Assembly: GCA_947628895.1 (NCBI GenBank)
Contig: CANRBS010000001.1
Span: 5,783-69,782 of the forward strand
Length of the DNA stretch: 64,000 bases
Direction: 5' to 3'
From: an uncultured Bacilli bacterium
Lineage (GTDB): Bacteria; Bacillota_I; Bacilli_A; RF39; UBA660
The position numbers and the translations under genes were made by a program. Below, in pieces: positions 7,191 through 60,082 of this stretch; positions within the stretch are counted from its first letter, which is position 1, and each line of letters starts with the position of its first letter. The notes beneath the pieces are model-generated. The model saw nothing but the letters and a program-made list of their open reading frames with translations, ran no database searches and was not told the origin of the DNA.

Positions 7191-7679
7191 GTGAATAGTC
7201 TTATTAAAAAAATATATATTAGAAACACTATTAAAAGTAGTTCAAAAGTTATTGAAGCAAAATTTATAAAAAAAGATGGAATAAAATATTATGTAGATGG
7301 CAAAAATGTGATATTAGATTATACAAAAAATGAATTAGAAATAGCAAAATGGTTGGTAAGTATATTAGGCGGAACAATATATTTATTACCAAGAATTAAT
7401 TATCCTGAAAATATAAAGACAGCAGATTATTTATGGAATAACGAATTTTGGGATTTGAAAGAAATTAATGGAAAAGGAAAAAATATTTTAGATAATAGAA
7501 TTAAAAATTATCAAAATCAATCAAATAATTTTATTTTAGTAATTAAAAATAATAAATTAAGCATAAAAAATATTGTACTTCAAATTAATAAAATTTATAA
7601 TTCTCCACATAGATTATGGGTAAATAAAATAATAATTATTAAAAATAGCAAATTATTAATGATAATAAAAAGAGATTGA
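7191..7679 (+). CDS. hypothetical protein with a possible PD-(D/E)xK nuclease-like core
   Basis: The 162-aa ORF uses a GTG start after an AGGAGGT RBS. The motif ...TADYLWNNEFWDLKEI (D...(D/E)xK) is present. Its 3' end lies inside the tandem repeat. Confidence 0.4.
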   Translation: MNSLIKKIYIRNTIKSSSKVIEAKFIKKDGIKYYVDGKNVILDYTKNELEIAKWLVSILGGTIYLLPRINYPENIKTADYLWNNEFWDLKEINGKGKNILDNRIKNYQNQSNNFILVIKNNKLSIKNIVLQINKIYNSPHRLWVNKIIIIKNSKLLMIIKRD

Positions 7680-17348: not shown

Positions 17349-17807
17349 TTAATTACAAGAACTTAAATAGCTCTCATAATTTCCTCCTTCAGTTTTATAA
17401 ATATAATTTCCTGCATCTCCACAATATAAATATGCATTTCCTGTATCATATATATCATTCTCATTTGCTTTTAAAACTACTATTCCACTGCATGGAACAC
17501 TTTTATAAAAAATTGTATCAAAATATTCTTTCTCTTGTAATGTAGAAATACAAACATATTTTGTTTTATCATCTATTTTTTTAAATTTAGAATTACATTC
17601 TTGCCTATGAGTATCATCAATTGAATGAGTACAATAATCTTGAACAAATAATTTAGCAGCATCTATTGCTTCACCTTCTTGAGCTTGCATTGTATCATCA
17701 ACAGATTCATTAAATATATCAATAACATTTGGTATAACTATAATTACTAATATTGCTATAATTCCAATTACTGCAAGTAATTCTACCATTGTAAAACCTT
17801 TTCTCAT
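17349..17807 (-). CDS. short type IV pilin/pseudopilin (ComGC-like) with a Cys-rich globular domain
   Basis: The prepilin leader is MRKG|FTMVELLAVIGIIAILVIIVIPNV, with F at +1 and E at +5. The mature part contains six Cys. The start was moved to the ATG that follows a GGTGA RBS. Confidence 0.75.
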   Translation of the reverse strand: MRKGFTMVELLAVIGIIAILVIIVIPNVIDIFNESVDDTMQAQEGEAIDAAKLFVQDYCTHSIDDTHRQECNSKFKKIDDKTKYVCISTLQEKEYFDTIFYKSVPCSGIVVLKANENDIYDTGNAYLYCGDAGNYIYKTEGGNYESYLSSCN

Positions 17808-17926
17808 ATCTTTCACCATATTTATTTTATCATTTAATATAAATACATTCAATAATAAAAATTAAAAAATGTAAAATTAGCATATAAAAAGTATTTAATT
17901 TTTAATAAAACTAAATACTAATATTT

Positions 17927-18601
17927 TTATTTTTTTAATTTTTTTATATTATTTTTTATAGATTCTATTTCATTTAATATTTTAATTTTATTTTTATAAC
18001 TATTTCTTAATAATATAAAACATAATATAGAAGAAATAATAAAATTAAAGAAAATAATTATAACCGTATCACTTAAAGGCTCAGTTTTGTTTGAAGGATT
18101 AGCCATTTTTTCAAATACATCATACCTATCTTCACTATTATATAATTTCACTATTTCTTCTTCAATTTGACTATTAAAACTACTAGAATAACCTACAAAT
18201 GTTTTATCACCTATTATTATAAAAGGGATACCAAATTCTTGTGAACTTGTATCATAATTAAAAAATTCTCCAACTTTATTTAAAAGTTTTGCATTATTTT
18301 CATCATACCAAGTTTCAAAAGAAATAAAATTAAAATAATTTGCATATTTTTTTAATATCGTATCATTTATATAATTAATAAAATCACTACAATGAGGACA
18401 ACCTTTTCCTCTAAATAAGTAAATATTAATTTTATCTTCACTTTCTTTATAATTACTTAAATCAGTATTAATACCCTCACTTTTAAATACATCTTCTAGT
18501 GTTTCAGTATTATAATCAGATATATTTATTTCTTCTGCTTTTATATTAATAGTATTAAAAATTAATAATAAATTTAAAATCAATAAAATTATTTTTTTCA
18601 T
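17927..18601 (-). CDS. secreted, membrane-anchored thioredoxin-fold thiol-disulfide oxidoreductase (DsbA/BdbD-like)
   Basis: A signal peptide is followed by GCPHC in a thioredoxin-like fold. A C-terminal TM anchor is present. The RBS is AAAGGAG. Confidence 0.7.
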   Translation of the reverse strand: MKKIILLILNLLLIFNTINIKAEEINISDYNTETLEDVFKSEGINTDLSNYKESEDKINIYLFRGKGCPHCSDFINYINDTILKKYANYFNFISFETWYDENNAKLLNKVGEFFNYDTSSQEFGIPFIIIGDKTFVGYSSSFNSQIEEEIVKLYNSEDRYDVFEKMANPSNKTEPLSDTVIIIFFNFIISSILCFILLRNSYKNKIKILNEIESIKNNIKKLKK

Positions 18602-18733: not shown

Positions 18734-20473
18734 CTAATTTTTAAGAACAATCCTAGAAGTGATGCTATAATATACATCACCGGTACTTCTAGCAAAACGA
18801 AATTGACCTGCTGTTACATTATCACTATGACCACCTCCACGATCAATCCAACTATATGAAGAATCAAGAAAGAATGAATAATCTTTATACCAAGCATTTT
18901 TATAACTTCCATCACTCCAAAATGGTCCCATTTCTCCTGTTGCATCTCCAAGGATCCTATATTTATATGTTAGTTTATCACTTGATGATGAATATTTATC
19001 TAAATATTTTGTATATGTTTCATTTGATACTATATTTTTCATTCCACTAACATTTAAATCACTACCATCTCTATATGAAGCCATATATTCCCAAGATCCG
19101 CCACTCATATCATATACTCCAGTTATATTTCCTGTAGTACTTGCTAATTTTCCAGTATCTGTATTCCATAATGCATTTTCTGTTGTACTAGTAATTGCAT
19201 CTTTAGTATTAGCTGCATATCCTGTTAAAAAATTACTATTGTTATTAATTCTTACTTCATCTTTTATTCCATATTTAGAGTGTGAAAGATATGCAACTGC
19301 TCCCCACTCTGTATTTTTCATCATATGACTATCTAAGCTTCTATTAAAATTGTAAGCATTCATAAATAAATTATATACTGTTGCACCTCTCCATGAATAT
19401 ACATTAGGTTTTATTATTATATTATTAGGTTTTTCTTCATCTACTTCTGAATTTTCTTTTATCCAAGTAGATATATTTTCATCAGTTATTGGTTGTGTTG
19501 TATCACTATTTTGATTATATCCTGTTTCAAATTTTCCTACCCAAAATCCATTTGATGGTATTGATAAAAATGCTGGATGTGTCATTAAATCTCCTACTTT
19601 GCAATCTTTTGTAGCCACACTTGCTCTTGATGAACCACTTTCCATTGGTGTTATACATTCACCACTTACTTCACTTGTTGTTCTTGTTCCAAATTCTATC
19701 TCTATTTCTTTTATTTGACTTTCTGGTTGACTACTTTCTAAGCCTTCATAGTTTCCAATATTGAATATTCTATAACTATATTTTGGTATCCATACAAAAT
19801 ATGCCCTTATATCACTTTCTAATATTGTATCTCCTTCTTTATATTCTTTACTTGGAGTGTCTACTAGTATTACTGCATTTGCCCATTTCTTTGATGTATA
19901 TTTATACCATTCATCATACTCATCCGCATATGTTACTACACCTGTATCTGATAACATTATTGGTATCATTTTATCTCCTAGTACTGGGTCAGCTCCATTT
20001 AATTCACTTTCTACATATTTTGTTTTTGGTTTTTCTCCATCAATCAATTGATTTCCTTTACAATCAGTTATACTTGTCTTGGCTTCTTCTACTTTATACT
20101 TTTTACCTATGTCTTCTCTTTGTATTCCACTTGATGAAGAAGCTATTAATTCATTTGCTTCATCTCTTGCGGATATTTCTACTATCTTCCCTTTATCATT
20201 AAATTTTACTACATATAATATGTTACTTCTTCCATCTAAATTTAATACATTTGTACTACTATCAAAACATCTTATTTCTTTATTTCCAATTGAAGAAGAT
20301 ACATATTTATCTTCAGCACTTCTTATTATATTTTGTACTTCACGGGTAAATGTATTTACTTTTGCATCTCTAAACATTTTAAGTACATTTGGAAGTGCTA
20401 TAATAACTAAAATTGCTAAAATTGCTATTACTGCTAGTAACTCTACTAATGTAAATCCTTTTTTATCTTTCAT
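18734..20473 (-). CDS. modular type IV pilin: prepilin N-terminal domain fused to an FGE/SUMF1-like (C-type-lectin-fold) C-terminal domain
   Basis: The leader is MKDKKG|FTLVELLAVIAILAILVIIALPNV. A D-region disulfide (C...C) is present. The C-terminus reads ...EWGAVAYL...GVYDMSGGSWEY, resembling the FGE motif G.YDMSGNVWEW. The protein is about 80% identical to 58074..59807. Confidence 0.7.
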   Translation of the reverse strand: MKDKKGFTLVELLAVIAILAILVIIALPNVLKMFRDAKVNTFTREVQNIIRSAEDKYVSSSIGNKEIRCFDSSTNVLNLDGRSNILYVVKFNDKGKIVEISARDEANELIASSSSGIQREDIGKKYKVEEAKTSITDCKGNQLIDGEKPKTKYVESELNGADPVLGDKMIPIMLSDTGVVTYADEYDEWYKYTSKKWANAVILVDTPSKEYKEGDTILESDIRAYFVWIPKYSYRIFNIGNYEGLESSQPESQIKEIEIEFGTRTTSEVSGECITPMESGSSRASVATKDCKVGDLMTHPAFLSIPSNGFWVGKFETGYNQNSDTTQPITDENISTWIKENSEVDEEKPNNIIIKPNVYSWRGATVYNLFMNAYNFNRSLDSHMMKNTEWGAVAYLSHSKYGIKDEVRINNNSNFLTGYAANTKDAITSTTENALWNTDTGKLASTTGNITGVYDMSGGSWEYMASYRDGSDLNVSGMKNIVSNETYTKYLDKYSSSSDKLTYKYRILGDATGEMGPFWSDGSYKNAWYKDYSFFLDSSYSWIDRGGGHSDNVTAGQFRFARSTGDVYYSITSRIVLKN

Positions 20474-20505: not shown

Positions 20506-20534
20506 ATTATATCGTATATATATATATATATCAA
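20506..20534 (-). promoter_or_regulatory. sigma-A-type promoter of the pilin-FGE gene with a (TA)8-containing 17-nt spacer
   Basis: On the sense strand the promoter reads TTGATA-(TA)n CGA-TATAAT. It is followed by a conserved leader AATAGAGAAGAGGTAACAAAAATG with a GAGG RBS. Confidence 0.5.
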
Positions 20535-39588: not shown

Positions 39589-41457
39589 ATGATATATTAC
39601 TCAAAATCTTATGGAATAGATGATTGTATAAATAGACAAATAGATATATCAATATCTCTTAGTAAAGAGTTTAGTGATAAAACTATTTATATGTTAAATG
39701 ATGATACAAATTTTAAAGACTTATTTAAAAATACAAATATTAAAGTAATAAATGATTATAAAAAATTAAAAGAAAATGATATAGTTGTTTTAAACTATTA
39801 TGGTGAAAGTAAAAATACTTATGATTATTTAAACAAAAATAAAATCATTTATTATGAATCATGTTCATTTGATATATCTAATACTAGTAAAACTATATTA
39901 GAAAAATATAATCAAAAATTTAATATTATTATAGTTGGAGATAAAAACTCAAAAGAAGTAATTAATTATAATACTTGGTGTAATAAAAAAGCATTAATTA
40001 TTGATAACATTAGTGATTTTAAGTTAATAAATAAAAATAATTATTTTATATTTTATTCTTTATATACATCAGTTGAATTATTAAATGAATTACAAAAATA
40101 TTTAAATGAAAATAAAATTGATTATGAAATAGATAATTCTATTTATGAAAGACAAAATAATATAGAAAAAGATACTATTAATTTATCTGAATATGTAGAT
40201 AAATTAATTATATTAGGAAGTAGTAATTATACTAATAAATTAGTACAAAAATGTTCTTTAAATACTAAAGTATATTTATATAAAGATATAAATGAATTTT
40301 ATAAAGGTATTAAAGCTGAAAAATTCACTAATGAAGAAAAAATAGGATTTTCTATGGAAGAAAATATTTCTAGAAATATTATGTATGATTGTGCTCATTT
40401 ATTAGAATTTTATATTTATTATAAAGATAGAATTAAAGATATAGAAGAAGAAATAAATAATTTTAATGAATTTATCAAATCAAAAGATAATAAAATTATA
40501 ACTGAGGCTATTCAAAAATTTATTAATATGAATAGTGGTGGTAAATATTTAAGAGCAATACTTATTGATCTTGGATATAAGTTAAATAAAGATAGTGATT
40601 ATGCACTTAAACTCGCTTCTTCTTATGAAGCATTTCAAACTTCTATATTAATACATGATGATATTATTGATAACTCTTGTTTTAGAAGAGGAAAAGAAAC
40701 TATTTCATATAGCTATAAAAAAGAATTTGAGTGTTTTAACTCTAATGATAATATTCATAATAATTTAGCTCTTTGTATTGGTGACTTAGGATTTTACTTC
40801 GTAAATGAATATATACTAAATAATTATAAAGATAATAAAAACTTTAATAAATTATTTTCTTATTATAATAATATTGTTATTAATACTATTAAAGGTGAAA
40901 TACTTGATGTTTATTTACCTTTTGTTGAAGAGTATGATAAAAAACGGGTATTAAAAGAAGAAGATATAATGGAAATATATAAATTGAAAACGGCACACTA
41001 CTCTATAGTCGGTCCATTTGTTATGGGAATGATACTATCTAACTCAAGAGATGATGAAATTAAAGAAATGGAAAATATTTTAGAGAATGTTGGTATTGCT
41101 TTTCAAATAAAAGATGATATTTTAGGTATTTATAGTAGTAATGAAATACTTGGAAAACCAGTATTTAGTGATATTGAAGAATTTAAACAAACAATACTTT
41201 ATTCTTATATTAAAATTAATAAAAAAGAATATTTAAATGAATTACTAAAATATTATGGTAAAAAAGAATTAACAGAAGATACTGCGGTAAAAGTACAAAA
41301 AATCATTGAAGAATCTGGTTCACTAAAATATGCTAATGATAAAATGAATGATATGTTTACTTTAGCTAAAAGAGAAATTAATTTTCTTCAAATTAATAAA
41401 GAAATAAAAGATATACTACTAGGTTTAATAGTATATTTAGAATTAAGGGAAAAATAA
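39589..41457 (+). CDS. trans-polyprenyl diphosphate synthase (IspA/GGPPS-like) with a 300-aa N-terminal extension of unknown function
   Basis: The C-terminal half carries both Asp-rich motifs (ILIHDDIIDN and FQIKDDILG). The N-terminal half has an IILGSSNYTNKL block weakly reminiscent of the IspH/LytB VVGSxNSSNS box. Confidence 0.7.
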   Translation: MIYYSKSYGIDDCINRQIDISISLSKEFSDKTIYMLNDDTNFKDLFKNTNIKVINDYKKLKENDIVVLNYYGESKNTYDYLNKNKIIYYESCSFDISNTSKTILEKYNQKFNIIIVGDKNSKEVINYNTWCNKKALIIDNISDFKLINKNNYFIFYSLYTSVELLNELQKYLNENKIDYEIDNSIYERQNNIEKDTINLSEYVDKLIILGSSNYTNKLVQKCSLNTKVYLYKDINEFYKGIKAEKFTNEEKIGFSMEENISRNIMYDCAHLLEFYIYYKDRIKDIEEEINNFNEFIKSKDNKIITEAIQKFINMNSGGKYLRAILIDLGYKLNKDSDYALKLASSYEAFQTSILIHDDIIDNSCFRRGKETISYSYKKEFECFNSNDNIHNNLALCIGDLGFYFVNEYILNNYKDNKNFNKLFSYYNNIVINTIKGEILDVYLPFVEEYDKKRVLKEEDIMEIYKLKTAHYSIVGPFVMGMILSNSRDDEIKEMENILENVGIAFQIKDDILGIYSSNEILGKPVFSDIEEFKQTILYSYIKINKKEYLNELLKYYGKKELTEDTAVKVQKIIEESGSLKYANDKMNDMFTLAKREINFLQINKEIKDILLGLIVYLELREK

Positions 41458-56112: not shown

Positions 56113-57879
56113 CTAATTTAATAATGTTATTTTTGCATAACCATTTCCAGTATGTCCAACTTCTGTTCCACCATCTGGTTTTGGCATACTCTCATTTCCA
56201 GCAATCATTTGTGTCTCTGTAAATACTTTTCCACTATAATGGTTTGGAGAGTCTAAATGCTTTATATTATTTTCTGTTGAAGTTGCTGTTATTGCTTTAC
56301 ATCCTGGGTGACCTGATATAAATGAAGATCCACCTGAACCTGATGATTTTGATCTAACATTTTGTGATTTACCACCATAATATCCGCCTCCGCCTCCACC
56401 GACACCATCTCCTGCAGCATAACCAACACCATCCATTCCTTTTCCTAAAGCATACCCACTTGTTTGACTTCCACCTAAAAGTGTATCATATAATGTTCTT
56501 GCAGAAAGTCCTCCTCCTTCGCCAACATCAAATTCCCAAGACCTTCCACCACCGCCAGCTGCAACCATTATTCTTGATTTTAAACTTTCAAAATTATCCC
56601 ATTTACCACTAGTTAGTCTTACATCAGTAGCTCCTCCGCCTCCACCAGAAGTCTCATCGTCACTACCATCAGTAGTTCCAAGACCTCCACCATTATATCC
56701 TCCTAGTGAATTTTCTCTTAAAACTGCATCTACTCCTTTACCTCCAACATAAATATATAACTCTTCATCTTTATTTAAAGTTATTTTTCCAGTTGTATAT
56801 GCTCCATTTCCGCCTTCTTTACCTCTCTTACCACTCATTAATGAGGCACCACCTTGTCCACCCCATAATTCAATTTTATATACTCCTGTTTTTGGTACTA
56901 CAAATGTCTCATAATTTCCAGTAAATGTATAATTTACTTTTGACCATATTGCATATAATGTTACTCTACCATTTTTATCACTTGTTAAATTTTTTACTAT
57001 TTCATTATTTTCATATGTTATTACTTTTGAAGTTTTATCTAATGACCAACCTACAAATTGATAACCATCTCTTGTAAAATTATTTGCAGTTAATTTTTCT
57101 TCTTTATCATATGTATGTGTTGATGAAGTTGTTTGTCCAGTTCCTTCATTTGCATTATATTCTACTGTATATGTATGAGCTTCATACTTACTTTCTAACA
57201 CAGTTGTACTATTTAATTTTGATAAATTTTCTTCTACTATATTTCCAACTTCATCAATTACTTTATCTTCAGTATTTGGTATATAATATCCTAAAAAATC
57301 ATATCCTTCTTTTTCTACTACTTTATCTAATTTTGTTATTTGAGTTGTTTTATCTTCTTTATATAATTTTCCATCATTTAAATATCCATAATTTGGAGTT
57401 GAGCCATCAAATGAGATTATTGGATATTTTGTTTCACTTCCTTGAAATATCAAACTTCCATCACAATCAAATATTATTGTTTCTTGACCTCTTTGATTTA
57501 CTTTATATGTTTTTCCTATATCTTCTTTTTTTATTCCATTTTCATTTGTAGCTATTAATTCATAAGTATTATCTACAATTTTTATTTCTGTTATTTTACC
57601 TTTATTTGATAATCTTATTAAATATACCATATCACTTCTTCCATCTAAATCTAATTTATTTTTATTACTATCAAAGCAGGTTACTCTTTTACTCCCTAAT
57701 GATAAAGATACAAACTTATTTTCTGCCTCTCTTATCATATTTTGTACTTCACTTGTAAATGTTTTTTCTGTTGAACCTTTAAATAATTTTAATACATTTG
57801 GTACTGCTATGATTACAAGTATCGCGAGTATTGCTATTACTGCTAGTAACTCTATTAATGTAAATCCTTTTTTCTTCAT
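56113..57879 (-). CDS. modular type IV pilin: prepilin domain, then a Listeria/Bacteroides flg_new repeat, then a Gly-rich C-terminal domain
   Basis: The leader is MKKKG|FTLIELLAVIAILAILVIIAVPNV. The flg_new repeat reads YTVEYNANEGTGQ...DGYQFVGWS...VTLYAIWS. The C-terminal Gly-rich domain reads VYKIELWGGQGG...LYIYVGGKG. Confidence 0.7.
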   Translation of the reverse strand: MKKKGFTLIELLAVIAILAILVIIAVPNVLKLFKGSTEKTFTSEVQNMIREAENKFVSLSLGSKRVTCFDSNKNKLDLDGRSDMVYLIRLSNKGKITEIKIVDNTYELIATNENGIKKEDIGKTYKVNQRGQETIIFDCDGSLIFQGSETKYPIISFDGSTPNYGYLNDGKLYKEDKTTQITKLDKVVEKEGYDFLGYYIPNTEDKVIDEVGNIVEENLSKLNSTTVLESKYEAHTYTVEYNANEGTGQTTSSTHTYDKEEKLTANNFTRDGYQFVGWSLDKTSKVITYENNEIVKNLTSDKNGRVTLYAIWSKVNYTFTGNYETFVVPKTGVYKIELWGGQGGASLMSGKRGKEGGNGAYTTGKITLNKDEELYIYVGGKGVDAVLRENSLGGYNGGGLGTTDGSDDETSGGGGGATDVRLTSGKWDNFESLKSRIMVAAGGGGRSWEFDVGEGGGLSARTLYDTLLGGSQTSGYALGKGMDGVGYAAGDGVGGGGGGYYGGKSQNVRSKSSGSGGSSFISGHPGCKAITATSTENNIKHLDSPNHYSGKVFTETQMIAGNESMPKPDGGTEVGHTGNGYAKITLLN

Positions 57880-58043: not shown

Positions 58044-58074
58044 ATATAAAAAAAGAAGTAAACCAGTTACTTCT
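58044..58074 (-). terminator. Rho-independent terminator of the pilin-FGE paralogue
   Basis: The hairpin AGAAGTAA-ACCAG-TTACTTCT is followed by UUUUUU on the minus strand. It overlaps the stop codon. Confidence 0.6.
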
Positions 58075-59807
58075 TAATTGGTTGGTGTAAGAACAAGACG
58101 AGAACCATTACTAGGATATGCTACACCCCTATTCCTGTCAAAGTTGAATTGACCAGTAATATATGTATTATTGTAACCACCACCACGATTAAACCAAGGC
58201 TGAGTAGAATGAACAAAATTTGAAAAGTCAGTATACCAAGTACTTTGATTATAACTACCACTACTCCAAAATGGTCCAAGCTCTCCTGTTGCATCTCCGA
58301 GGATTCTATATTTATATAACAATCTATCACTTGATTCTAAATATTTTTCTAAATATTTTGTGTATGTTTCATTTAATACTATATTTTCCATTCCACTAGC
58401 ACTTAAATCACTACCATCTCTATATGAGGCCATATATTCCCAATATCCACCACCTATATCATATATTCCACTTATATTTCCTGTTGTACTTGCTAAATGT
58501 CCTATTGATGTATTCCATTTTGAATTTTCAGTTGCACTTCCTTCTGCGTCTTTTTCATTTGCTGCATAGCCTGTTAAATAATTACTATTATTATTTATTC
58601 TTACTCCATCTTGTATTCCATATTTTGAATATGAAAGATATGCAACAGCTCCCCACTCAGTATTTTTCATCATGTGACTATCTAAGTTTCTTTTAAAATT
58701 GTAGGCACTTTGAAAAAATGTTGCAATTGTTTGATCTCTCCATGAATATACATTAGGTTTTACTATTATATTTGATGGCTTTTCTTCATCTACTTGCGCA
58801 TTTTCAGTTGTCCAAGTAGATATATCAGTATCAGTTATAGGTAAACTTGGATCTTCATTTTGATTATATCCTGTTTCAAATTTTCCTACCCAGAATCCAT
58901 TACTTGGTATACTTAAGAATGCTGGATGTGTCATTAAATCTCCTATATCACACTCCCCAGTTTCTCCACTTTCCATTGGACTTGCACATTCTTTTTTTAT
59001 TTCATCATTTACTGTTGTTCTTGTTCCAAATTCTATCTCTATTTGTTGAACACTACTTTTTTCTGGTTCACTACTTTCTAATCCTTCATAATTTCCTAAA
59101 TTGAATATTCTATAACTATATTTTGGTATCCATACAAAATATGCACGTATATCTGATTCTGCTATTACTTCCCCTTCAGTATATTTTTTACTTGGCTTGT
59201 CTACTAATATTACTGCATTTGCCCATTTCTTTTCAGTATATTTATACCACTCATCATACTCATGTGCATATGTTACTACTCCTGCATCTGATAATATTAC
59301 TGGTATCATTCCACTTCCTAGTACTGGATCAGACCCATTTAATTCACTTTCTTTGTATACTATTTTTTCTCCACTAGTTAACTCATTTCCATTACAATCT
59401 AATATTTGTGTTTTTGCTTCATTTACTTTATACTTTTTTCCTATGTCTTCCCTTTGTATTCCATTTGTATTATTTGCTATTAATTCATTTGCTTCATCTC
59501 TTGCCCTTACTTCTATTACTTTTCCTTTATCGTTAAATTTAACTATATATAATATATTACTTCTTCCATCTAAATTTAATGCATTTGTACTACTATCAAA
59601 ACATCTTACTTCTTTATTTCCAATTGAAGCAGAAATATATTTACTCTCAGCACTCTTCATTATATTTTGTACTTCACTTGTAAATGTATTAACTTTGGCA
59701 TCCCTAAACATTTTTAAAACATTTGGAAGTGCTATAATAACTAGTATTGCTAATATTGCAATTACTGCTAAAAGTTCTACTAATGTAAAAGCATTTTTAT
59801 TTTTCAT
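58074..59807 (-). CDS. modular type IV pilin with an FGE/SUMF1-like C-terminal domain (paralogue of 18734..20473)
   Basis: The leader is MKNKNA|FTLVELLAVIAILA, with Ala rather than Gly at position -1. The protein is about 80% identical to the 579-aa paralogue across the pilin domain, the central IRAYFVWIPKYSYRIF block and the C-terminal domain. Confidence 0.7.
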   Translation of the reverse strand: MKNKNAFTLVELLAVIAILAILVIIALPNVLKMFRDAKVNTFTSEVQNIMKSAESKYISASIGNKEVRCFDSSTNALNLDGRSNILYIVKFNDKGKVIEVRARDEANELIANNTNGIQREDIGKKYKVNEAKTQILDCNGNELTSGEKIVYKESELNGSDPVLGSGMIPVILSDAGVVTYAHEYDEWYKYTEKKWANAVILVDKPSKKYTEGEVIAESDIRAYFVWIPKYSYRIFNLGNYEGLESSEPEKSSVQQIEIEFGTRTTVNDEIKKECASPMESGETGECDIGDLMTHPAFLSIPSNGFWVGKFETGYNQNEDPSLPITDTDISTWTTENAQVDEEKPSNIIVKPNVYSWRDQTIATFFQSAYNFKRNLDSHMMKNTEWGAVAYLSYSKYGIQDGVRINNNSNYLTGYAANEKDAEGSATENSKWNTSIGHLASTTGNISGIYDIGGGYWEYMASYRDGSDLSASGMENIVLNETYTKYLEKYLESSDRLLYKYRILGDATGELGPFWSSGSYNQSTWYTDFSNFVHSTQPWFNRGGGYNNTYITGQFNFDRNRGVAYPSNGSRLVLTPTN

Positions 59808-59839
59808 TTGGTTTACCTCTTCTCTATTTTTACTCCCTT

Positions 59840-59866
59840 ATTATATCGTATATATATATATATCAA
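59840..59866 (-). promoter_or_regulatory. sigma-A-type promoter of the pilin-FGE paralogue with a (TA)7-containing 15-nt spacer
   Basis: The architecture matches 20506..20534 but has one TA unit fewer. The spacer is therefore 15 nt rather than 17. Confidence 0.45.
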
Positions 59867-60082
59867 GAGGCACTTCAATATTTTTACATTTAAAAATCTA
59901 CATTATGTATAACATATATGTAGACTATTTTAATCAAAATGTAGGAGGAAAGACTTGCTAACCTTTCATCTCTTTTGACCATTAAGGTGTGTGGACGCAA
60001 GATATATTTTTCCACCTCTCCTACAAAAAATATTATATCAATTTTTCTTATTTTGTCAATTTTAATTATAAATTTATTCATT

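What the first reader, a model, noticed from the sequence alone, without database searches (positions are those of the whole stretch)
58074..59807. Second pilin-FGE paralogue 38 kb away with Ala at the prepilin -1 position
The 577-aa protein is about 80% identical to 18734..20473. It shares the pilin domain, the IRAYFVWIPKYSYRIFN block, the ...LMTHPAFLSIPSNGFWVGKFETGYNQN... block and the C-terminal FGE-like domain. Divergence is concentrated in the inter-domain linker. Its leader is MKNKNA|FTLVE, so the near-invariant Gly at -1 is Ala. Prepilin peptidases tolerate this substitution poorly. This suggests either a functional variant or an alternative or silent copy, as with antigenic-variation cassettes.
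Basis: seen in the sequence. Interest (0 to 1): 0.6.

Follow-up and report, generated by a model that had tools for sequence, protein, structure and literature searches.

The report
Variable pilin adhesin gene, harmless Ala leader

Summary
Window 58074..59807 (-) encodes a 577-aa protein with leader MKNKNA|FTLVE. It is a paralogue of 18734..20473 (-), at 73% amino-acid and 81% nucleotide identity.

The interpretation built on the alanine does not hold. Replacing Gly-1 with Ala has no effect on pilin processing or assembly in Streptococcus sanguinis, and pneumococcal ComGC is naturally cleaved after Ala. Among 173 related pilin leaders, 169 have Gly and 4 have Ala, and no other residue occurs.

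The copy is not a silent cassette. It has its own promoter, ribosome-binding site and terminator, and its signal peptide is under strong purifying selection (dN/dS 0.08).

The protein is a modular type IV pilin: a pilin module, a neck, and a formylglycine-generating-enzyme (FGE)-type C-type-lectin head without the catalytic cysteines. The nearest folds are variable proteins of diversity-generating retroelements (DGRs) and phage tail fibres. Related metagenome-assembled genomes (MAGs) carry at least 9 and at least 17 copies, which vary most in the last ~65 residues.

The new lead is a (TA)n tract in the -35/-10 promoter spacer of most copies. This copy has n=7 (15-nt spacer) and its paralogue n=8 (17 nt). 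I infer slippage-driven phase variation; it is not shown.

The parts
58074..59807 (-). Complete gene for a 577-aa modular type IV pilin (copy A, Ala at -1)
   Evidence: ORF list. PF07963 scores 28.8 bits against a cut-off of 21.2. TIGR02532 scores 23.4 bits against 16.3.
59790..59807 (-). Six-residue leader peptide MKNKNA. The Ala-1 codon GCT lies at 59790..59792.
   Evidence: Read directly from the sequence. The paralogue has GGA (Gly) at this codon.
59373..59789 (-). Mature pilin module, residues 7-145. It has a hydrophobic alpha1N helix with Glu5 and Pro22, and a small beta-sheet head with the conserved Cys69-Cys138 pair.
   Evidence: AlphaFold2 gives helix 9-62 plus four strands, with 10-residue block means of pLDDT 74-87 over residues 11-140. 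A profile of the family hits solved pilins. The module is 53% identical to that of the adjacent gene 56113..57879.
58938..59372 (-). Beta-rich neck and linker region, residues 146-290. It includes the IRAYFVWIPKYSYRIFN block, a variable acidic linker (241-255) and the conserved Cys274-Cys286 pair.
   Evidence: AlphaFold2 model of residues 146-577 has mean pLDDT 93.7. dN/dS is 0.81 for residues 241-290. Entropy is and Cys conservation.
58077..58937 (-). FGE-type C-type-lectin-fold head, residues 291-577. It has no Cys, so it lacks the FGE catalytic Cys pair.
   Evidence: Foldseek top hits are TaqVP 5vf4 (E 8.5e-8), Mtd, PvdO, EgtB and FGE 6muj. In the viral library the top hits are phage tail fibres and a protein with a sulfatase-modifying-factor domain. 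The start of the head at residue 291 is my estimate from the model and the Pfam match.
58077..58277 (-). Hypervariable C-terminal segment, residues 511-577. I infer that it is the ligand-binding surface.
   Evidence: Entropy is 1.0-1.84 bits here against 0-0.36 over residues 1-135 of the pilin module. Residues 521-560 are 40% identical between the two window copies. Its position matches the variable region of Mtd and TvpA (PMC5758913).
59840..59866 (-). Promoter of copy A: TTGATA (59861..59866), a 15-nt spacer, then TATAAT (59840..59845)
   Evidence: Read from the sequence and parsed. The same architecture is found upstream of the paralogue and of copies in other MAGs.
59849..59862 (-). (TA)7 tract that overlaps the last two bases of the -35 hexamer and fills most of the spacer
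   Evidence: This is one of only two (TA)>=6 tracts in the 64-kb window. About 0.08 tracts of (TA)>=7 are expected by chance.
59813..59827 (-). Shared 5'-UTR and ribosome-binding element ATAGAGAAGAGGTAA
   Evidence: Exact copies occur only upstream of the three large pilin genes.
58046..58075 (-). AT-rich terminator hairpin followed by a T-run, starting at the stop codon
   Evidence: Folding gives -7.5 kcal/mol, z = -3.0.
18734..20473 (-). Paralogue (copy B, Gly at -1), 579 aa
20506..20534 (-). Promoter of copy B: TTGATA, a 17-nt spacer holding most of the (TA)8 tract (20515..20530), then TATAAT
56113..57879 (-). Third modular pilin. It has the same pilin module but a different cargo (Listeria-Bacteroides repeat plus ALK/LTK glycine-rich domain). 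Its promoter is TTGATA-18-TATAAT with no TA tract.

Best explanation
The gene encodes an intact, functional modular type IV pilin.

How it is most likely processed and displayed:
- Its class III signal peptide (MKNKNA|FTLVE...) inserts it into the membrane.
- The organism's prepilin peptidase cleaves it after Ala-1. Alanine is the one residue other than glycine that these enzymes accept. This step is inferred from experiments in other species.
- The alpha1N helix with Glu5 lets the subunit enter a type IV filament. Because the cargo is about 430 residues, it is probably a low-abundance or tip subunit, as proposed for S. sanguinis PilB. This is inferred.
- The filament presents a beta-rich neck and an FGE-type C-type-lectin head. 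The head lacks the FGE catalytic cysteines, so I infer that it is a binding module rather than an enzyme.

The family:
- The gene is one member of a multigene family in low-GC uncultured gut Bacilli. The window holds 2 copies, and two related rabbit-gut MAGs hold at least 9 and at least 17.
- The copies keep the pilin module nearly constant and diversify the last ~65 residues of the lectin fold. This is where DGR variable proteins place their ligand-contacting residues.
- Where the flanks were examined (the copies in and near the window), each copy is its own transcription unit.

The promoter repeat:
- Most copies examined (20 of the 26) have a (TA)n tract in the -35/-10 spacer. The other six have a short (TA)4-5 tract but no recognisable -35.
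- Spacer length follows n and ranges from 13 to 19 nt. This copy has 15 nt and its paralogue the optimal 17 nt.
- I infer that slipped-strand changes in n raise or lower transcription of individual copies, so a population displays changing sets of adhesin heads.
- On the assembled sequence, this copy is therefore predicted to be weakly expressed because of its promoter, not because of its alanine.
For: Intact gene and signals:
- The ORF is complete.
- PF07963 and TIGR02532 both score above their cut-offs despite the Ala.
- The gene has a promoter, ribosome-binding site and terminator.
- The first 45 codons have dN/dS 0.08 at dS 0.72, against 0.42 for the whole gene.

Alanine is tolerated:
- PMC6497953 shows G-1A without effect and G-1S abolishing processing.
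- PMC3694846 shows ComGC cleaved after Ala15 and methylated.
- PMC3244431 states that cleavage occurs at glycine or alanine.
- Natural leaders are 169 Gly and 4 Ala, with nothing else.
- Tandem pilins in L033 mix Ala and Gly leaders.
- P0001 and P0007, which both have Ala, are not sisters in a neighbour-joining tree.

Modularity:
- The pilin module is 53% identical to that of the adjacent gene, which carries a different cargo.
- The same cargo occurs on non-pilin N-termini in other Bacilli.
- The cargo family is large: 3460 representatives at E<=1e-3 and 555 at E<=1e-30.

Fold:
- The AlphaFold2 model has mean pLDDT 93.7 and pTM 0.94.
- Foldseek hits are TaqVP, Mtd, PvdO, EgtB and FGE, plus phage tail fibres.
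- There is no conserved Cys after residue 286.

Family size and variability:
- 29 loci were found in 4 MAGs, 17 of them in a single MAG.
- Entropy peaks at residues 511-577.

(TA)n tracts:
- The only two (TA)>=6 tracts in 64 kb lie in the two promoters, where 0.08 tracts of (TA)>=7 are expected.
- n is 7 and 8 in the window, 7, 8 and 7 in one MAG, 6-9 across 13 promoters of another, and 7 in a further copy from an ENA metagenome (L041).
- The flanks of the tract are nearly invariant among copies.
- A precedent exists: a (TA)9-11 tract between -35 and -10 controls H. influenzae hif fimbriae (PMC2651432).
Against: - No prepilin peptidase, assembly ATPase or platform gene lies in the window. Signature-motif scans of the 370 kb held from this window and from related MAG and metagenome contigs also found none. 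That the organism assembles type IV filaments is therefore assumed.
- No cleavage, expression or read-level data are available.
- Differences in n are seen between paralogues, not between cells or samples at one locus. The one locus seen in three samples has a short, invariant (TA)4 tract.
- Most copies sit at a 15-nt spacer. This could be a working spacing for this organism's sigma factor rather than an off state.
- Foldseek TM-scores are modest (0.36-0.50). The query includes a neck domain that the hits lack.
Confidence: 0.7

Rival explanations
1. Ala at -1 blocks or slows cleavage, so this copy is unprocessed, non-assembling or silent, comparable to an antigenic-variation cassette.
For: Gly is much the commoner residue at -1, at 169 of 173 leaders. 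One review states that bacterial leaders invariably end in Gly (PMC4471445). The copy also has a sub-optimal 15-nt promoter spacer.
Against: G-1A has no effect in S. sanguinis, and the same paper reports a similar result in P. aeruginosa. ComGC is cleaved after Ala. Ala recurs in four relatives, including classical short pilins seen in several samples. The gene has a full promoter, ribosome-binding site, start codon and terminator. Purifying selection on the signal peptide is strong, with dN/dS 0.08. The ORF has no frameshift or internal stop.
Confidence: 0.07
2. The protein is not a filament subunit. The class III signal peptide serves only as a membrane anchor or export tag that places the lectin head on the cell surface, as in the archaeal bindosome.
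For: No type IV pilus machinery was found in the window or in 370 kb held from this window and related contigs. The same cargo is carried by plain transmembrane or TasA-like N-termini in other Bacilli. The bindosome precedent is described in PMC4471445.
Against: Glu5, Pro22 and a complete pilin head domain with a conserved disulfide pair are retained under strong constraint. A simple anchor would not need these. Short classical pilins with a closely similar alpha1N helix exist in the window and in relatives.
Confidence: 0.15
3. The (TA)n tract is only an AT-rich promoter spacer that happens to slip. It has no regulatory role, and all copies are expressed constitutively.
For: The genome is 24% GC. 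Most copies share n = 7. No within-locus variation was observed.
Against: Tracts of this length occur nowhere else in 64 kb. The tract keeps the same position across MAGs whose flanking promoter sequence differs. n varies while the flanks do not. The adjacent pilin gene with a different cargo has no tract. Sigma-70-type promoters are sensitive to spacer length, as shown for hif.
Confidence: 0.3
4. A diversity-generating retroelement elsewhere in the genome produces the C-terminal hypervariability.
For: The best structural matches are DGR variable proteins. The variability sits where a DGR variable region would.
Against: No template-repeat copy of the 3' end exists in the window. No reverse transcriptase motif was found in the 370 kb held. 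Divergence at synonymous sites is also high in this segment (dS about 1.0 for residues 521-560), which fits old paralogue divergence better than recent targeted mutagenesis.
Confidence: 0.05
5. The head is an enzyme of the FGE or sulfoxide-synthase type rather than a binding module.
For: There are weak Pfam FGE-sulfatase hits. FGE, EgtB and OvoA appear among the fold matches.
Against: No Cys lies after residue 286, so the FGE catalytic pair is absent. All Pfam scores are below the gathering threshold. The top fold matches are non-enzymatic binding proteins. TvpA, which has this fold, has no FGE activity.
Confidence: 0.04

Closest known systems
Modular type IV pilins: S. sanguinis PilB (vWA module) and PilC (lectin module); Raynaud et al. 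2021, PMC8179133
   Same: [quoted passage not shown] The architecture IPR012902-IPR005532 (pilin plus sulfatase-modifying-factor domain) is already listed for 8 proteins in that paper's Dataset S1.
   Different: Here the cargo is a 430-residue neck plus an FGE-type lectin head. The gene is scattered among housekeeping genes, not in a pil locus. It is present in many paralogous copies per genome, most of them with a repeat-containing promoter.
DGR variable proteins with an FGE-type C-type-lectin fold (T. denticola TvpA, T. aquaticus TaqVP 5vf4, Bordetella phage Mtd)
   Same: These are the best fold matches. They are non-catalytic, and their variability is concentrated at the C-terminal end of the fold.
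   Different: No reverse transcriptase or template repeat was found. Diversity here comes from many diverged gene copies, not from mutagenic retrohoming. These proteins are displayed on a pilin rather than on a lipoprotein or phage fibre.
H. influenzae hifA/hifB fimbrial phase variation through (TA)9-11 in the promoter spacer (PMC2651432)
   Same: The same repeat unit lies in the same place, between -35 and -10, upstream of a pilus gene. Spacer length changes in 2-nt steps.
   Different: hif encodes chaperone-usher fimbriae at one bidirectional locus in a proteobacterium. Here there are many unidirectional promoters for type IV pilin paralogues in Bacilli, and switching has not been demonstrated.
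Mycoplasma hyorhinis vlp multigene family, with a poly(A) tract in each promoter spacer (cited from my own knowledge)
   Same: A family of variable surface-protein genes in a low-GC member of the Bacilli lineage. Each gene has its own promoter and a simple repeat between -35 and -10, which gives combinatorial on/off expression.
   Different: The Vlp proteins are lipoproteins with repetitive C-termini, not pilins with folded lectin heads. The repeat is mononucleotide.
Streptococcus pneumoniae ComGC
   Same: It is a natural type IV pilin of a member of Bacilli with Ala at -1. It has been shown to be cleaved after Ala15 and N-methylated (PMC3694846).
   Different: ComGC is a small major pilin of the competence pilus with a 15-residue leader and no cargo.
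Neisseria pilE/pilS antigenic variation (cited from my own knowledge)
   Same: There are several pilin-related copies per genome, with variable C-terminal parts.
   Different: pilS cassettes lack a promoter and the conserved N-terminal coding region, and act as recombination donors. The copy here is complete and independently transcribable.

Membership tests
Type IV pilin (class III signal peptide protein) | A short hydrophilic leader ending in Gly (or Ala), followed by about 21 hydrophobic residues with Glu at +5 | tested here: met
   The sequence is MKNKNA|FTLVELLAVIAILAILVIIALPN. PF07963 scores 28.8 bits against 21.2 and TIGR02532 scores 23.4 against 16.3.
Type IV pilin (class III signal peptide protein) | Pilin fold: a long N-terminal helix packed on a small antiparallel beta-sheet | tested here: met
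   AlphaFold2 gives helix 9-62 and four strands between residues 69 and 112, with 10-residue block means of pLDDT 74-87 over residues 11-140. A family profile matches solved pilins such as PilE1 8pfb, but only over the N-terminal ~60 residues.
Type IV pilin (class III signal peptide protein) | Cleavage and N-methylation by a dedicated prepilin peptidase | not testable with these tools
   This needs biochemistry. The expectation of cleavage rests on G-1A and ComGC data from other Bacilli.
Type IV pilin (class III signal peptide protein) | A cognate machinery (prepilin peptidase, assembly ATPase, platform protein) in the same genome | tested here: inconclusive
   None was found in the 64-kb window or by motif scan of the 370 kb held, the window included. 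The rest of the genome was not available.
Modular pilin (sense of Raynaud et al. 2021) | A pilin module joined to an extra module that also occurs outside type IV pilus proteins | tested here: met
   The cargo occurs on non-pilin N-termini and in 3460 cluster representatives. The adjacent gene has the same pilin module with a different cargo.
Formylglycine-generating enzyme (FGE/SUMF1) family | A Pfam PF03781 match above the gathering score | tested here: not met
   This copy has no hit. The paralogue scores 21.4 bits against a cut-off of 23.3. The best E-value among 64 relatives is 1.2e-5.
Formylglycine-generating enzyme (FGE/SUMF1) family | The catalytic, copper-binding Cys pair near the C-terminus | tested here: not met
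   Cys occurs only at positions 69, 138, 274 and 286. None is conserved in the head.
Formylglycine-generating enzyme (FGE/SUMF1) family | [quoted passage not shown] | tested here: met
   Foldseek hits are TaqVP, PvdO, EgtB and FGE 6muj, plus a viral protein with a sulfatase-modifying-factor domain.
DGR variable protein | A C-terminal variable region paired with a nearby template repeat and a reverse transcriptase | tested here: not met
   No second copy of the 3' end exists apart from the paralogue. No reverse transcriptase motif was found in the 370 kb held. The whole genome was not examined.
Silent pilin cassette (pilS-like) | A partial copy lacking a promoter, a start codon and the conserved N-terminal coding region | tested here: not met
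   The copy is full-length and has a promoter, ribosome-binding site, ATG and terminator.
Promoter-spacer simple-repeat phase-variable gene | A simple-sequence repeat located between the -35 and -10 hexamers | tested here: met
   The promoter reads TTGA(TA)7CGA-TATAAT, with coordinates 59840..59866.
Promoter-spacer simple-repeat phase-variable gene | Repeat number varies while the flanks are conserved | tested here: met
   n ranges from 6 to 9 across 19 promoters with a recognisable -35 in the window and related assemblies, with near-identical flanks. This is variation between paralogues only.
Promoter-spacer simple-repeat phase-variable gene | Reversible length changes within a population that alter expression | not testable with these tools
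   This needs sequencing reads, transcriptomes or reporter assays.

The most novel reading that the evidence does not exclude
Uncultured low-GC gut Bacilli may run a combinatorial surface-variation system built on type IV pili. It would consist of up to 17 or more scattered, monocistronic modular-pilin genes. Each would carry a lectin-fold head that is hypervariable at the site DGR variable proteins use for ligand contact. Most would be switched independently by (TA)n slippage in the promoter spacer. This would be a type IV pilus counterpart of the Mycoplasma vlp system, reaching DGR-like head diversity through gene-family expansion.
Probability: 0.4. Interest if true: 0.65.

Novelty: new member of a known kind. 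Interest (0 to 1): 0.35.

Why it matters
The flagged alanine does not matter. It is a known, tolerated variant and should not be used to call pilin genes defective.

The family around it is of moderate interest for three reasons:
- Modular pilins can be expanded into large paralogous adhesin repertoires in uncultured gut bacteria.
- The FGE-type lectin fold is reused here as a variable binding head without a diversity-generating retroelement.
- It gives a concrete, testable candidate for repeat-driven phase variation of type IV pilus adhesins in a host-associated lineage that has no cultured members.

There is also a practical point. These repeated promoters coincide with contig ends in the MAGs, so copy numbers of the family are probably underestimated.

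Tried and rejected
- **Shallow alignment for structure prediction.** The first AlphaFold2 run used 28 close sequences. It gave a usable pilin module but a meaningless cargo (mean pLDDT 46). I repeated it on residues 146-577 with 64 more diverse sequences.
- **Source contigs.** Exact look-ups of P0001, P0006 and P0007 found no record. Cluster look-ups gave no names or accessions. I therefore could not tell whether P0007, the other MKNKNA copy, comes from the same genome, and I could not read its promoter.
- **Promoter scans of JGI metagenomes.** Two scans found nothing relevant. The first gave zero hits, and the second gave six chance hits with no pilin gene downstream.
- **Type IV pilus machinery.** A search for signature motifs in the 370 kb held found only an ABC transporter.
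- **DGR components.** The search found one ORF with YIDD and LPQGS motifs, which looks like a RelA/SpoT-type protein (my reading of its N-terminal sequence). There was no template repeat.
- **Sequence search against solved structures.** A family profile recovered only pilin N-termini, plus sub-significant hits to 5vf4 and PvdO.
- **Sequencing error at the -1 codon.** I rejected this because Ala recurs in other contigs and samples.
- **Link between the skipping-rope RNA and the pilin gene.** I rejected this because the paralogue has no such RNA, and the RNA has its own promoter and terminator.
Full report
**1. The observation**

The ORF at 58074..59807 on the minus strand encodes 577 residues beginning MKNKNAFTLVELLAVIAILAILVIIALPN. 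The ORF at 18734..20473 (-) encodes 579 residues beginning MKDKKGFTLVE. BLASTP aligns them end to end at 73% identity with 12 gaps.

At nucleotide level they are 80.7% identical over 1823 nt. That stretch runs about 80 nt upstream of the start codon and stops at the stop codon. The -1 codon is GCT in one copy and GGA in the other. The core observation therefore stands. The figure of about 80% fits the DNA rather than the protein.

**2. Is the alanine unusual or damaging?**

Experiments say it is not damaging:
- In S. sanguinis, a member of Bacilli, PilE1 G-1A "had no effect on processing or assembly into filaments", whereas G-1S abolished both. The authors note a similar result in P. aeruginosa (PMC6497953).
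- Pneumococcal ComGC is cleaved after Ala15 and N-methylated (PMC3694846).
- Imam et al. describe cleavage "at a glycine or alanine" (PMC3244431).

Natural relatives agree. Among the 240 relatives retrieved, 173 have a recognisable leader. Of these, 169 end in Gly and 4 in Ala, and no other residue occurs. This matches the experimental tolerance.
- One Ala-1 protein, P0141, was found on five contigs from different samples.
- P0141 heads a tandem set of four short pilins whose alpha1N helices are nearly identical to the helix here. Two of the four have Ala and two have Gly.
- P0007 has the identical MKNKNA leader. It is not the closest relative of this copy in a neighbour-joining tree.

A sequencing error is therefore unlikely, and the substitution is a recurrent, tolerated polymorphism of this lineage.

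**3. Is it a silent or decaying copy?**

It is not.
- The ORF is uninterrupted.
- Upstream lie TTGATA, 15 nt, TATAAT, and a 15-nt ribosome-binding element. That element is found, letter for letter, only before the three large pilin genes of the window.
- A terminator hairpin follows the stop codon (z = -3.0). Another terminator separates the gene from the upstream small RNA.
- Nei-Gojobori estimates give dN/dS 0.42 for the whole gene but 0.08 for codons 1-45, where dS is 0.72. The signal peptide is thus the most strongly conserved part of both copies.

**4. What the protein is**

- PF07963 and TIGR02532 pass their cut-offs.
- AlphaFold2 models residues 9-145 as a pilin: a long helix and a four-stranded sheet, with block-mean pLDDT 74-87.
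- The adjacent gene 56113..57879 has the same pilin module (53% identity over residues 4-164). It carries a different cargo, a Listeria-Bacteroides repeat plus an ALK/LTK glycine-rich domain.
- The 430-residue cargo of our protein also occurs behind plain transmembrane or TasA-like N-termini in other Bacilli. It has 3460 cluster representatives at E<=1e-3, some with up to eight tandem copies.

The protein is therefore a modular pilin in the sense of Raynaud et al. Their Dataset S1 already lists the architecture pilin plus sulfatase-modifying-factor domain for 8 proteins.

**5. The cargo fold**

Pfam FGE-sulfatase is below threshold in the paralogue and absent in this copy. It is weak in 29 of 64 relatives.

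With a deeper alignment, AlphaFold2 gives mean pLDDT 93.7 and pTM 0.94. Foldseek against the PDB ranks the hits as follows:
- TaqVP (5vf4, E 8.5e-8) and Mtd first. Both are DGR variable proteins.
- PvdO, EgtB and FGE after them.

Against viral models, the top hits are phage tail fibres and a protein with a sulfatase-modifying-factor domain.

The protein has Cys only at 69, 138, 274 and 286. None is conserved in the head, so the FGE catalytic pair is missing. TvpA, which has the same fold subclass, has no FGE activity and is thought to bind ligands (PMC5758913). I conclude that the head is an FGE-type C-type-lectin binding module. The fold is shown. The binding function is inferred.

**6. Where the copies differ**

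The linker (residues 241-290) is 66% identical with dN/dS 0.81. The most divergent part is residues 521-560, at 40% identity. Among 13 close relatives, column entropy is 0-0.36 bits over residues 1-135 of the pilin module and 1.0-1.84 bits over residues 511-577.

In Mtd the final ~45 residues of the lectin fold form the variable, ligand-contacting surface, and TvpA likewise exposes its variable residues there. I found no template repeat and no reverse transcriptase. The diversity appears to come from diverged gene copies.

**7. Family and host**

A scan of species-representative genomes found 29 loci, all in four uncultured Bacilli MAGs from rabbit gut. Seventeen lie in one MAG and nine in another. 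Many are cut by contig ends.
- The window is 23.7% GC.
- Both window copies sit among housekeeping genes. This one lies just downstream of tuf and the other near lepB and lgt.
- No prepilin peptidase, assembly ATPase or platform gene is in the window.
- Motif scans of the 370 kb held, window included, found none either.

The existence of a filament machinery is therefore assumed.

**8. The promoter repeat**

Copy A reads TTGA(TA)7CGA-TATAAT, with a 15-nt spacer. Copy B reads TTGA(TA)8CGA-TATAAT, with a 17-nt spacer. These are the only (TA)>=6 tracts in 64 kb, where 0.08 tracts of (TA)>=7 are expected.

The same arrangement recurs in other assemblies:

| Source | Promoter form | n observed | Spacer (nt) |
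|---|---|---|---|
| Window copy A | TTGA(TA)nCGA-TATAAT | 7 | 15 |
| Window copy B | same | 8 | 17 |
| Lapin-021 bin67 (3 copies) | same | 7, 8, 7 | 15, 17, 15 |
| Lapin-027 bin88 (13 promoters) | CTTGACTTYCA(TA)nAT | 6 (x4), 7 (x7), 8 (x1), 9 (x1) | 13, 15, 17, 19 |
| L041, ENA metagenome contig (ERZ27249358) | TTGA(TA)nCGA-TATAAT | 7 | 15 |

- In Lapin-027 bin88 the flanks are nearly invariant, and only one of 13 promoters has the 17-nt optimum.
- Seven other pilin promoters examined do not fit this pattern. Six have the -35 replaced by a different sequence and a shorter (TA)4-5 tract (section 10). One, in L009, has an interrupted tract and no TATAAT.
- The neighbouring pilin gene with a different cargo has an 18-nt spacer and no tract.

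The arrangement matches the (TA)9-11 spacer switch of H. influenzae hif (PMC2651432). From my own knowledge, it also resembles the poly(A) spacer switches of the Mycoplasma hyorhinis vlp family.

What is shown is the position of the tract, its rarity elsewhere in the window, and length variation among paralogues. What is inferred is that the length changes within populations and controls expression. On the assembled sequence, copy A is predicted to be the weaker promoter.

**9. Verdict**

The flagged feature is ordinary: an intact pilin gene with a tolerated Ala-1. The gene is a new member of a known kind, the modular type IV pilins. The multicopy, hypervariable-head family and its repeat-bearing promoters are the part worth following up. 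I could not test processing, filament assembly or switching.

**10. Side observations**

- A skipping-rope RNA (Rfam RF02924, 53.4 bits) lies at 59940..60025 (-). It has a perfect TTGACA-16-TATAAT promoter preceded by TG and its own terminator.
- A membrane-anchored thioredoxin-like protein with a CPHC motif (17927..18601) and a short pilin (17349..17852) lie downstream of copy B.
- Six family copies in other genomes have the -35 replaced by a roughly 45-nt sequence that could form a hairpin and is flanked by TA tracts. Four of the contigs involved start within about 115 nt upstream of the gene.

Noticed in passing
window 59849..59862 and 20515..20530 (both minus-strand promoters); also L001-L029 and L041: A (TA)n tract sits exactly in the -35/-10 spacer of most pilin-lectin paralogues examined. 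n ranges from 6 to 9, giving spacers of 13-19 nt. These are the only (TA)>=6 tracts in the window. The arrangement suggests repeat-driven phase variation, as in H. influenzae hif.
   Followed up: partly
window 59940..60025 (-), promoter 60032..60059, terminator about 59893..59925: A skipping-rope RNA (Rfam RF02924, 53.4 bits against a gathering score of 36.7) lies between tuf and the pilin gene. It has a perfect TG-extended TTGACA-16-TATAAT promoter and its own terminator hairpin. The paralogue has no such RNA upstream.
   Followed up: partly
window 56113..57879 (-): A third modular pilin of 588 aa lies next door. Its pilin module is 53% identical to this one, but the cargo is a Listeria-Bacteroides repeat plus an ALK/LTK glycine-rich domain (E 1.4e-52). 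It shares the identical 15-nt ribosome-binding element. Its promoter has an 18-nt spacer and no TA tract.
   Followed up: partly
window 17349..17852 (-) and 17927..18601 (-): Just downstream of copy B lie two genes. One is a short classical pilin (leader ...MRKG|FTMVE). The other is a secreted, C-terminally anchored thioredoxin-like protein with a CPHC motif like that of DsbA. It could form the two conserved disulfides of these pilins.
   Followed up: no
L005:1-115, L011:1560-1689, L030:1-100, L042:1-101, L043:1-97: In six family copies (the L030 locus was seen in three samples, L030-L032) the -35 is replaced by about 45 nt (TATATATGG..TTTTTGGGNNCACACCA). This sequence could form a hairpin and is flanked by TA tracts, with only (TA)4-5 before the -10. 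Four of the contigs involved start within about 115 nt upstream of the gene, which suggests assembly breaks at a repeated or heterogeneous element.
   Followed up: no
L033:5206-7189 (also L034): A tandem cluster of four short pilin paralogues (140-150 aa) occurs in a Tenericutes-labelled MAG. Two have MKKNA|FTLVE leaders and two have ...NG|FTLVE leaders, with otherwise near-identical N-termini.
   Followed up: yes
proteins P0241, P0260, P0382, P0387: The same 430-residue cargo module occurs in 5 to 8 matched stretches in giant proteins of 2338-4516 aa. No family name was found for it in Pfam or NCBIfam.
   Followed up: no
L030:11506-11821 and L022:101-3226: Relatives encode further modular pilins. 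One has a DUF285 cargo. Another is a 1041-aa pilin with Listeria-Bacteroides repeats and the lectin head. This lineage appears to graft many cargoes onto one pilin module.
   Followed up: no
window 7191..7679 (+): A 162-aa ORF has a CdiA C-terminal toxin domain (PF18451, E 6.4e-15). It stands alone among housekeeping genes.
   Followed up: no
window 39589..41457 (+): A single 622-aa ORF combines a LytB/IspH domain with a polyprenyl synthetase domain. This appears to be a fusion of two isoprenoid-pathway enzymes.
   Followed up: no
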